This document shows, piece after piece, positions 61,400 through 64,000 of a stretch of DNA of 64,000 nucleotides. Each line of letters starts with the position of its first letter. Within the stretch, counting starts at the first letter, position 1. The DNA is from Escherichia coli. GTDB taxonomy: Bacteria; Pseudomonadota; Gammaproteobacteria; Enterobacterales; Enterobacteriaceae. The position numbers are program-made. The DNA lies in NCBI RefSeq assembly GCF_965641715.1, contig NZ_OZ282453.1; one strand, given 5' to 3'.

Positions 61400-64000
61400 T
61401 CATCCTCTCCGGATAAGGCACGGGCGTAATCTGCCAGTGTTTTCTTGTTGGTTGCTGCACCATCCTCTTCCTGCAGGCTCGCCAGCAGTGCACTGAGATC
61501 CAGCTGCCAGCGGGAAATACTGATGCGCAGCGCCGCCAGCGCATAAACGAAGCAGTCGAGCGCCTCATTGCGTCGCTTTTTGCTGTCCCACAGTATTTTT
61601 TTCCTGCCATCCACCCATTTTTCGACCTGCTCTTCAGCAGTCAGCTGCTGCGCTTCGGTCAGATCAAAAATATCCGGGTTATTCGGGAAGTGAACGGCAC
61701 CGGGAAGCGGTTCATCCCCTTCCGGCGTCAGTGTGAAGCGGTTATAAATCTGCTCTTTCGCGGTATCCGTACCAATTTCGGTAAGATAAACCCCGTTTTT
61801 GTTTCGCTTACGTGGCATGCTGGCCACCGGCTTTCCGTAGACGGATGCCCCTTTAATGGGGATCACCCGGAACAGCCCATGCTTTTTCGAGCGTTCATAC
61901 ACAATGGTCGGGTCAATCCCGCCAGTATCCCAGCAGATACGGGATACCGACATTTCTGCACCATTCCGGCGGGTATAGGTTTTATTGATGGCCTCATCCA
62001 CACGCAGCAGCGTCTGTTCATCGTCGTGGCGGCCCATAATAATCTGCCGGTCAATCAGCCAGCTTTCCTCACCCGGCCCCCATCCCCATACGCGCATTTC
62101 GTAGCGGTCCAGCTGGGAGTCGATACCGGCGGTCAGGTAAGCCACACGGTCAGGAACGGGCGCTGAATAATGCTCTTTCCGCTCTGCCATCACTTCAGCA
62201 TCCGGACGTTCGCCGATTTTCGCTTCCCACGTCTCACCGAGCGTGGTGTTCACGAAGGTTTTACGTTTTCCCGTATCCCCTTTCGTTTTCATCCAGTCTT
62301 TGACAATCTGCACCCAGGTGGTGAACGGGCTGTACGCCGTCCAGATGTGAAAGGTCACACTGTCAGGTGGCTCAATCTCTTCACCGGATGACGAAAACCA
62401 GAGAATGCCATCACGGGTCCAGATCCCGGTCTTTTCGCAGATATAACGGGCATCAGTAAAGTCCAGCTCCTGCTGGCGGATGACGCAGGCGTTATGCTCG
62501 CAGAGATAAAACACGCTGGCGGGATCATCCGGCGTCCATTTGAGGCCAAACGGCGTCTCTTTATCGCCAAATTTAAGGTACTGCTCCTCCCCACAGTGCG
62601 GGCAGGCAACATGAAAACGCATAAAATGCGGGGATTCACTGGCTGCACGCTCAATCTGGCAGGTGCCTCTCACTTTGGGCGTGGAGCCACGGATGGACTT
62701 TGGCCAGACCGAGCCTTCAATACGCTTATCGCCCAGGAACGTCGGAGAGCCTTCCTGTTCAATATCCTCATCAAAGGCAGCAAGTTCATCATAACCCGCC
62801 ACATCCACTGACTTTTCACGGTAGTTTTTTGCCGCTTTACCGCCCAGGCACCAGAAGCCACGCCCATTGGTGAAACGCTTCATGGTGAGCGTGTTATCCC
62901 GGTGCTTTTTGCCATACCACGGGGCCAGCGCCAGCAGCGACGGAATATCACGAATAGTCGGCTCAACGTGGGTTTTCATGAAGTTCTCGGCATCACCATC
63001 CGTCGGCAACCAGATAAGGGTGTTGCGCTGCTTATGCTCTATGAAGTAGGCATAAACACCCAGCAGCATTTTGGAATAACCAACACGGGCAGACTTCACC
63101 ACATTCACCTCGCGGATGTAGTCACTGCCCATCGCATTCATGATGGCCCGCTGAAAGGGCAGTGTTTCCCAGCGCCCTTCCTGGTATGCGGATTCTTTTG
63201 GGAGATAGTAATTGGCATCCGCCCATTCAACGGCGGTCTGTGGCTCCGGCCTGAACAGTGAGCGAAGCCCGGCGCGGACAAAATGCCGCAGCCTGTTAAC
63301 CTGACTGTTCGATATATTCACTCAGCAACCCCGGTATCAGTTCATCCAGCGCGGCTGCTTTGTTCATGGCTTTGATGATATCCCGTTTCAGGAAATCAAC
63401 ATGTCGGTTTTCCAGTTCCGGAAAACGCCGCTGCACCGACAGGGGGATCCCGTCGAGAATACTGGCAATTTCACCTGCGATCCGCGACAGCACGAAAGTA
63501 CAGAATGCGGTTTCCACCACTTCAGCTGAGTCTCTGGCATTCTTCAGTTCCTGTGCGTCGGCCTGCGCACGCGTAAGTCGATGGCGTTCGTACTCAATAG
63601 TCCCTGGCTGGAGATCTGTCTCGCTGGCCAGCCGCAGTTCTTCAACTTCCCGGCGCAGCTTTTCGTTCTCAATTTCAGCATCCCTTTCGGCATACCATTT
63701 TATGACGGCGGCAGAGTCATAAAGCACCTCATTACCCTTGCCACCGCCTCGCAGAACGGGCATTCCCTGTTCCTGCCAGTTCTGAATGGTACGGATACTC
63801 GCACCGAAAATGTCAGCCAGCTGCTTTTTGTTGACTTCCATTGTTCATTCCACGGACAAAAACAGAGAAAGGAAACGACAAAGGCCAAAAAGCTCGCTTT
63901 CAGCACCTGTCGTTTCCTTTCTTTTCAGAGGGTATTTTAAATAAAAACATTAAGTTATGACGAAGAAGAACGGAAACGCCTTAAACCGGAAAATTTTCAT

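What the first reader, a model, noticed from the sequence alone, without database searches (positions are those of the whole stretch)
63842..64000. Window ends inside cos, just short of cosN
The last 159 bp match the lambda left end from about nucleotide 30 onward, covering cosB including the R-site and IHF-site region. The 12-nt cohesive end itself should lie about 20-30 bp past the window. Its presence would confirm that packaging is intact.
Basis: partly seen in the sequence, partly recalled or inferred. Interest (0 to 1): 0.3.

Follow-up and report, generated by a model that had tools for sequence, protein, structure and literature searches.

The report
Lambda-type prophage cos site, cosB half

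Summary
**Observation: confirmed.** The minus strand of window 64000..63842 is phage lambda nt 31-190. It matches 158 of 160 lambda positions, with one G deleted and one C>T change in R1. It contains the whole of cosB (R3, the IHF region I1, inverted R2, R1) and runs straight into intact Nu1 and A terminase genes. These are followed by a complete, collinear lambda late operon (Nu1 to J).

**cosN position: as predicted.** cosN lies outside the window.

**Interpretation: only partly right.**
- cosN is naturally polymorphic in lambda-like prophages.
- Every sequence that matches the window's 159 nt with no mismatch carries GGGCGTCAGGCG, not GGGCGGCGACCT. These are E. coli EC416 and PEC41, plus one IMG/VR contig that is cut after 155 nt.
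- EC416 has no mismatch over the 2,924 nt next to the window end.
- So the proposed test, and its "would refute" criterion, would probably fail even though cos is likely functional.
- Finding cosN would not by itself show that packaging is intact.

**Verdict.** This is a well-known system, very close to lambda itself. Interest is low. The only mildly notable point is the rare cosN allele, which includes a left-half change (G6T).

The parts
63842..64000 (-). Right-hand part of cos: lambda nt 31-190, i.e. 19 nt of the cosN-to-R3 spacer, all of cosB, and the Nu1 leader
   Evidence: 158 of 160 lambda positions conserved. 100% identical to EC416 and PEC41.
63966..63981 (-). R3, the critical TerS (Nu1) binding site. 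AGGCGTTTCCGTTCTT, identical to lambda bp 50-65.
   Evidence: The R3 extent (bp 50-65) is from PMC9026076. Detected as a repeat copy.
63923..63965 (-). I1 region (IHF bending site) between R3 and R2, identical to lambda nt 66-108. The best match to WATCAANNNNTTR is at 63940-63952 (1 mismatch, reverse orientation).
   Evidence: alignment and consensus scan. The placement of I1 between R3 and R2 is from PMC4669245 and PMC9026076. The exact IHF footprint was not verified here.
63907..63922 (-). R2, a TerS binding site inverted relative to R3 and R1. AGAAAGGAAACGACAG, identical to lambda nt 109-124.
   Evidence: (15-nt perfect inverted repeat with R1).
63866..63881 (-). R1, the accessory TerS site (lambda nt 151-166). 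TTGTCGTTTCCTTTCT: the first base is C>T relative to lambda. The R2-R1 spacer is 1 nt shorter than in J02459.
   Evidence: The 1-nt deletion is also present in DE3 and in a lambda stock record (1001 vs 1002 nt aligned), so it is evidently tolerated.
63296..63841 (-). Nu1, the terminase small subunit (181 aa). It has 3 substitutions vs lambda (Q71L, A75T, L132I), all outside the N-terminal wHTH DNA-binding domain.
   Evidence: Pfam Phage_Nu1, 333 bits.
61396..63321 (-). A, the terminase large subunit (641 aa). It is 99.5% identical to lambda gpA, with the ATPase and endonuclease domains present.
   Evidence: GpA_ATPase, GpA_nuclease.
45051..61399 (-). Head and tail genes W, B, C/Nu3, D, E, FI, FII, Z, U, V, G, T, H, M, L, K, I, J. 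All are full-length and collinear with lambda.
   Evidence: tblastn gives a single full-length HSP for each, at 81-100% identity.

Best explanation
Window 63842-64000 (minus strand) is the cosB half of the cos packaging site of a lambda-type (Lambdavirus-like) prophage. The prophage's late arm fills window ~41.3/41.7-64 kb, next to the host genes uspF-ompN-nifJ.

Mechanism, taken from established lambda biology:
1. Dimers of the small terminase subunit Nu1 bind R3 and the inverted R2 across a hairpin bend that IHF induces at I1.
2. R1 assists.
3. This anchors the large subunit gpA so that it nicks cosN 12 bp apart, generating 5' cohesive ends.
4. Packaging then proceeds rightward through Nu1, A and onward (leftward in window coordinates).

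Shown here: R3, I1 and R2 are identical to lambda. R1 differs at one base. Nu1's DNA-binding domain is identical to lambda's. [quoted passage not shown]

Inferred: cosN and cosQ lie just beyond base 64000, with cosN 19-30 nt past it. I estimate a probability of about 0.8 that the 12-nt cohesive end is the rare natural allele GGGCGTCAGGCG and not lambda's GGGCGGCGACCT. The rare allele keeps the conserved GGGC start and the CG dinucleotides flanking both nicks, so it should be cut normally.
For: Identity and register.

R sites as direct and inverted repeats.

Terminase and late genes intact.

Literature on anatomy and mechanism: PMC4669245 and PMC9026076.

cosN allele inference:
- EC416 reads ...ACG GGGCGTCAGGCG CGCGGGTTTTCGCTATTT followed by the window's exact 159 nt.
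- Only EC416 and PEC41 among 5,426 complete genomes match the 159 nt at 100%, and both carry this allele.
- IMG/VR contig L019 is 155/155 identical and carries it behind a different cosQ-cosN spacer.
- Window vs EC416: 0 mismatches in the first 2,924 nt and 14 in 9,001 nt, ungapped.
- The allele recurs with cosQ GGGTCCT intact in 14 IMG/VR contigs, 1 metagenome contig and 9 complete genomes.
- A sibling allele, GGGCGGAAGGCG, occurs in deposited phage genomes PhiR46_1 and YDC107_1.
Against: - cosN, cosQ and the rest of the prophage (lysis, Q, replication, immunity, int) are outside the window and were never seen. The source genome was not found in any collection.
- The population prior favours the canonical allele: 103 of 116 IMG/VR loci anchored only on nt 13-45.
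- Canonical-cosN haplotypes exist that are 1 mismatch from the window over 303 nt (L090, L144).
- No isolated phage in INPHARED carries GGGCGTCAGGCG, so cutting of that allele has not been shown experimentally. It has a left-half change (G6T), and the literature describes the left half as under selection.
- The effect of the R1 C>T change is untested.
Confidence: 0.82

Rival explanations
1. One reading: the cos is canonical lambda, and GGGCGGCGACCT lies 19-30 nt past the window end.
For: The canonical allele is by far the commonest: 103 of 116 in the sample anchored on nt 13-45. Most E. coli hits fall in the identity band expected for it. The next-nearest relatives ETEC1738, HCP5S3_I2, PhiR11_1 and 2G7b (98.8-99.4% over 2.5-3 kb) are canonical. 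L090 and L144 are 302/303 identical to the window and canonical.
Against: Every sequence with no mismatch to the window's cosB carries GGGCGTCAGGCG. All canonical carriers of the R1 C>T marker differ at 4 or more of the 159 nt. Given the 2,924-nt mismatch-free tract shared with EC416, this reading needs a recombination breakpoint within the ~30 nt just past the window end.
Confidence: 0.13
2. The cos is broken or orphaned beyond the window, for example by a deletion, an IS insertion, or a cryptic-prophage remnant like the nohA/nohD cos regions of K-12. The visible cosB would then no longer serve packaging of a viable phage.
For: The half of the prophage beyond cos is unseen. Many E. coli homologues of Nu1 are annotated nohA/nohD, names that, from my own knowledge, come from the cryptic prophages Qin and DLP12.
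Against: On the visible side nothing is degraded. [quoted passage not shown] The near-clonal EC416 copy has continuous cosQ-cosN-cosB. Every related cos site examined is continuous across cosN.
Confidence: 0.04
3. It is the cos of a phage-inducible chromosomal island (PICI) or other satellite that hijacks lambda-like terminase, and not a phage cos.
For: PICIs carry lambda-like cosQ and cosN (PMC9026076).
Against: According to that paper, PICI cos sites lack repeated R sequences and are followed by an rpp gene. Here R3, R2 and R1 are present, followed by Nu1, A and a complete lambda morphogenesis operon.
Confidence: 0.01

Closest known systems
Phage lambda cos (J02459 nt 1-190 plus the right end): cosQ-cosN-cosB with R3-I1-R2-R1
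   Same: nt 31-190 are 158/160 conserved. R3, I1 and R2 are identical. The Nu1 start is at the equivalent of bp 191. The Nu1 wHTH domain is identical, and gpA is 99.5% identical.
   Different: The first base of R1 is C>T, and the spacer is 1 nt shorter. The spacer change is shared with DE3 and some lambda stocks. cosN and cosQ are not visible, and cosN is probably a different allele.
Prophage cos of E. coli EC416 (NZ_AP027404, ~4,795,937-4,796,185) and PEC41 (NZ_CM168023, ~4,065,902-4,066,150)
   Same: 100% identical over the 159 nt. For EC416 there are 0 mismatches over the adjacent 2,924 nt and 14 over 9,001 nt.
   Different: These records show the part the window lacks: cosQ GGGTCCT, a 22-nt spacer, and cosN GGGCGTCAGGCG. 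The prophage may sit at a different chromosomal site (not determined).
Natural cosN variants of lambda-like phages (N15 and phiD326 differ from lambda at bp 9 and 12; Gifsy-1 at 8, 9 and 11; surveyed by Vahanian et al. 2017, Virology 509:140)
   Same: The pattern is the same: variation is concentrated in bp 7-12, while the GGGC start, the flanking CG dinucleotides and cosQ are conserved. Lambda terminase is not cosN-specific (PMC4669245; PMC9303873).
   Different: The allele inferred here differs at 5 of 12 positions (6, 8, 9, 10, 12), including one left-half position (G6T). I could not read Vahanian 2017, so I cannot say whether this allele is already catalogued.
Phages PhiR46_1 (PV340565) and YDC107_1 (CP025712), and the PEC41 prophage at uspF-ompN
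   Same: They have lambda-type cosB and terminase together with a non-canonical cosN.
   Different: Their allele is GGGCGGAAGGCG (changes at 7, 8, 9, 10, 12), not GGGCGTCAGGCG. Their cosB differs from the window at several positions.

Membership tests
Lambda-type complex cos site | cosB with three related TerS-binding R sequences in the order R3-I1-R2-R1, with R2 inverted | tested here: met
   R3 is at 63966-63981, R2 at 63907-63922 (inverted), and R1 at 63866-63881. R2 and R1 form a 15-nt perfect inverted repeat, and R3 is a 92% copy.
Lambda-type complex cos site | IHF site (I1) between R3 and R2 | tested here: met
   The interval is base-for-base identical to lambda nt 66-108. The consensus scan gives a 1-mismatch match at 63940-63952. 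IHF binding itself was not tested.
Lambda-type complex cos site | cosN: a 12-bp staggered nick site flanked by CG dinucleotides, at a fixed distance from R3 | not testable with these tools
   It lies 19-30 nt beyond the window end, and the source genome was not found. It is absent from the window itself. In relatives the spacing is fixed at 18 nt from the window end.
Lambda-type complex cos site | cosQ (GGGTCCT) upstream of cosN, needed for termination | not testable with these tools
   It is outside the window. It is present in all printed relatives.
Lambda-type complex cos site | The adjacent terS (Nu1) gene starts ~190 bp from the left end, with a lambda-specificity recognition helix, followed by terL (A) | tested here: met
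   The ATG is at the lambda bp 191 equivalent. Nu1 residues 1-70 are identical to lambda. Pfam hits are Phage_Nu1, GpA_ATPase and GpA_nuclease.
Canonical lambda cohesive end GGGCGGCGACCT | Exact 12-mer at cosN | not testable with these tools
   It is unseen in the window. All zero-mismatch relatives have GGGCGTCAGGCG instead, so membership is doubtful (I estimate ~0.13).
Cryptic-prophage cos remnant (nohA/nohD type) | The cos and Nu1 homologue are left without functional terminase large subunit and head genes | tested here: not met
   All of Nu1 to J are full-length.
PICI cos | No repeated R sequences, and cos is followed by rpp instead of terS | tested here: not met
   R repeats and Nu1 are present. 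The criteria are from PMC9026076.

The most novel reading that the evidence does not exclude
cosN alleles of lambda-like prophages (GGGCGGCGACCT, GGGCGGAAGGCG, GGGCGTCAGGCG and rarer forms) may act as cohesive-end compatibility groups. A chromosome packaged between two different alleles on a recombinant or mixed concatemer would have ends mismatched at 2-5 of 12 positions and would cyclise poorly. This would partly isolate co-resident lambda-like prophages from each other. PEC41, for example, carries two alleles. The G6T allele would also show that the supposedly constrained left half of cosN can change in nature.
Probability: 0.1. Interest if true: 0.4.

Novelty: already known. Interest (0 to 1): 0.12.

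Why it matters
The practical value is in annotation. The window contains the cosB half of a lambda-type cos next to an intact packaging and morphogenesis module, so this prophage arm looks functional.

The useful caution is methodological. Searching for the literal lambda 12-mer is not a safe test for cos in lambda-like prophages, because roughly one in ten related sites carries another allele. The lineage nearest to this window carries a rare one, found in 9 of 5,426 complete E. coli genomes, mostly from pigs. A better test looks for the conserved frame: cosQ GGGTCCT, then ..ACG, then GGGCG plus 7 variable bases, then CGCGGGTTTTCGC.

Tried and rejected
1. **Finding the source genome to read past base 64000.** An exact 27-mer from the window gave 0 hits in genome contigs. 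In IMG/VR it hit only L019, which is cut 155 nt in. A slightly shifted 27-mer gave 8 metagenome contigs, all with 4 or more mismatches to the window. The best complete E. coli genome is 99.9% identical over 3 kb, not 100%. The source is not in these collections.
2. **Using the single R1 C>T base as a predictor of the cosN allele.** Rejected. Of 39 marker-bearing sequences, 25 are canonical, 10 are GGGCGGAAGGCG, 3 are GGGCGTCAGGCG and 1 is GGGCGGAAGGCT. Only the full haplotype is informative.
3. **A coverage-based census with a 57-mer.** It did not cleanly separate canonical from variant sites, because canonical sites aligned full-length. Only the count of exact matches (9) and the approximate 1-2-mismatch band (~260 records) are usable.
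4. **Literature access.** Vahanian et al. 2017, the natural cosN survey, is not held. I could not find the paper behind the PhiR phage records, so I cannot state that PhiR46_1's ends were determined experimentally.
5. **A first paper search with 'cosn' matched anywhere** returned mostly materials-science noise.
6. **No tRNA genes** were found in the window.

Full report
**Observation.** Read on the minus strand, window 64000..63842 is the left end of phage lambda from nt 31 to nt 190.
- Megablast places window 64000-63000 on J02459 31-1032 at 98.6% identity.
- A global alignment shows only two differences in the 160 lambda positions: loss of one G of lambda 138/139, and C151>T.
- The Nu1 start codon is at window 63841, equivalent to lambda 191.
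- The 159 nt hit about 4,000 of 5,426 complete E. coli genomes, with E down to 7e-77. This is a real, widespread element and not a chance match.

**Anatomy.** I used published coordinates: R3 is bp 50-65; R2 and R1 share a 16-bp sequence and R2 is inverted; I1 lies between R3 and R2; the Nu1 start is at bp 191 (PMC9026076; PMC4669245). In window coordinates:
- R3 is 63981-63966, identical to lambda.
- The I1 interval is 63965-63923, identical to lambda. The best IHF-consensus match is at 63952-63940.
- R2 is 63922-63907, identical to lambda.
- R1 is 63881-63866, with its first base changed C>T.

The repeat finder recovers these sites independently: a 15-nt perfect inverted repeat (R2/R1) and a 92% copy (R3). 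The 1-nt deletion is shared with DE3 and a lambda stock record, which align over 1001 nt where J02459 aligns over 1002. It is therefore evidently tolerated. The whole of cosB is inside the window. The window stops 18 nt short of the right-hand nick of cosN.

**Context.**
- Directly downstream on the minus strand lie Nu1 (181 aa; 3 substitutions vs lambda, all outside the N-terminal wHTH domain) and A (641 aa; 3 conservative substitutions). Pfam confirms both.
- All lambda late proteins from W through J give single full-length tblastn matches at 81-100% identity, in lambda order.
- Host DNA (aldA-hrpA-ynb-ydbH-ldhA-nifJ-ompN-uspF) fills window 1 to ~41.3 kb. PEC41 has a lambda-like prophage at the same uspF-ompN junction.
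- So the window holds the complete late arm of a lambda-type prophage, inverted. cos is at its inner end. The lysis, regulatory and integration half lies beyond the window.

**What lies past the end.** The source genome could not be found, so I used relatives.
- In nearly all related cos sites examined, the window-end sequence is preceded by CGCGGGTTTTCGCTATTT. Before that come a 12-mer..ACG, a ~22-23-nt spacer, and cosQ GGGTCCT. One locus, L009, has a single-base variant of the 18-mer.
- The 12-mer is polymorphic. In an IMG/VR sample anchored only on nt 13-45, 103 of 116 loci are GGGCGGCGACCT, 11 are GGGCGGAAGGCG, 1 is GGGCGACGACCT and 1 is GGGCGGCAGGCG. Targeted scans add GGGCGTCAGGCG and GGGCGGAAGGCT.
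- Positions 1-5 (GGGCG) are the same in every allele seen. The CG dinucleotides flanking both nicks are conserved in the printed examples.
- This agrees with the literature. Bp 7-12 vary freely, as in N15, phiD326 and Gifsy-1. The left half, the flanking CG dinucleotides and cosQ are conserved. Lambda terminase packages cosN-N15 as well as cosN-lambda (PMC4669245; PMC9303873 citing Vahanian 2017).

**Which allele does this prophage have?**
- Only EC416 and PEC41 match the window's 159 nt at 100% among 5,426 complete genomes. Both carry GGGCGTCAGGCG.
- IMG/VR contig L019 is 155/155 identical and carries the same allele behind a different cosQ-cosN spacer. This suggests the allele travels with the cosB side.
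- Window and EC416 show 0 mismatches over the first 2,924 nt from the window end and 14 over 9,001 nt, ungapped. The next-best relatives have 19 or more mismatches in 3 kb and are canonical.
- The R1 C>T marker alone is not predictive (25 of 39 carriers are canonical). However, all of those canonical carriers differ from the window at 4 or more of the 159 positions.
- Weighing the strong canonical prior against near-clonal identity with EC416, I put about 0.8 on GGGCGTCAGGCG, about 0.13 on the canonical allele, and the rest on other alleles or a disrupted site.
- GGGCGTCAGGCG differs from lambda at bp 6, 8, 9, 10 and 12. It keeps GGGC and both CG flanks, and has 8 of 16 symmetric bp where lambda has 10.
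- It is rare. With exact flanks it occurs in 9 complete genomes, 7 of them from pigs. It occurs in no INPHARED phage.
- It recurs with intact cosQ, with several different upstream spacers, and with two unrelated cosB types. That pattern fits a functional, exchangeable allele and not decay.
- The sibling allele GGGCGGAAGGCG occurs in the deposited phage genomes PhiR46_1 and YDC107_1.

**Mechanism.**
[quoted passage not shown] The bound Nu1 positions gpA to nick cosN 12 bp apart. Terminase stays on the cosB end, docks on the portal, and translocates DNA through Nu1, A and onward until the next cosQ-cosN.
- Shown here: the binding sites, the Nu1 DNA-binding domain and both terminase genes are essentially lambda's.
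- Not shown: cosN, cosQ, the rest of the prophage, and any activity.

**Comparison and verdict.** This is the textbook lambda cos, in a prophage whose visible half is intact. It is already known.
- Its proposed test and refutation criterion are unsafe, because the literal lambda 12-mer is probably absent here although cos is probably functional.
- cosN alone would not establish intact packaging.
- Rivals considered: canonical cosN (0.13), a broken or orphaned cos (0.04), and a PICI cos (refuted by the R sites and Nu1).
- Interest is low. The only mildly notable point is a rare cosN allele with a left-half change. I could not check it against the Vahanian 2017 survey, which is not held.

Noticed in passing
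window 39033-40166 (+): The porin gene ompN has an in-frame premature stop at codon 227 (...SSDRTND*VNHT...). It is probably a pseudogene in this strain. The gene is intact (1,134 nt) in PEC41.
   Followed up: partly
window 1-41300: The host backbone (aldA-hrpA-ynb-ydbH-ldhA-nifJ) is at most 99.0% identical over 20 kb to any of 5,426 complete E. coli genomes. The source lineage is not represented in that collection, and it may be a divergent E. coli or Shigella-like lineage.
   Followed up: no
window 23365-26643 and 26627-29356 (-): Two large ORFs (1092 and 909 aa) overlap by 17 nt in the ydbA-like autotransporter region. This could be a frameshifted single autotransporter, or two genes as annotated in relatives.
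   Followed up: no
L001 5971-5982; L060 ~2971-2982; L177; many IMG/VR loci: cosN of lambda-like prophages has at least six natural alleles: GGGCGGCGACCT, GGGCGGAAGGCG, GGGCGTCAGGCG, GGGCGGCAGGCG, GGGCGGAAGGCT and GGGCGACGACCT. Positions 1-5 are invariant. GGGCGGCAGGCG looks like the intermediate between the two commoner variants.
   Followed up: partly
NZ_CM168023 (PEC41) ~4,066,060 and ~2,580,300 (L060): One genome carries two lambda-like prophages with different cohesive-end alleles. GGGCGTCAGGCG is at one site, and GGGCGGAAGGCG is at the uspF-ompN site.
   Followed up: partly
L008, L010-L012, L014, L016, L017 (IMG/VR): The GGGCGTCAGGCG allele, with the same 18-nt right flank, is also joined to a completely different downstream region (ATGAGCATTTTAAGGGGACTGGTGGTGG...) that lacks lambda R sites. 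This implies a different packaging-specificity module, or possibly a satellite.
   Followed up: no
window 63581-63940 (+): A 119-aa ORF runs antisense across Nu1 and cosB. Several phage records annotate small 'hypothetical proteins' over cos. These are probably spurious calls.
   Followed up: no
window 41915-44317 (-) and 44376-44975 (-): There is an uninterrupted 800-aa side-tail-fibre ORF, whereas the lambda reference has split orf401/orf314. The lom homologue is only 44% identical to lambda Lom. The distal end of the late arm is mosaic.
   Followed up: no
window ~63893 (lambda nt 138/139): The J02459 reference has one extra G here relative to the window, DE3 and a recent lambda stock record (PV340536). 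This removes the small GAGGC/GCCTC hairpin between R2 and R1.
   Followed up: partly
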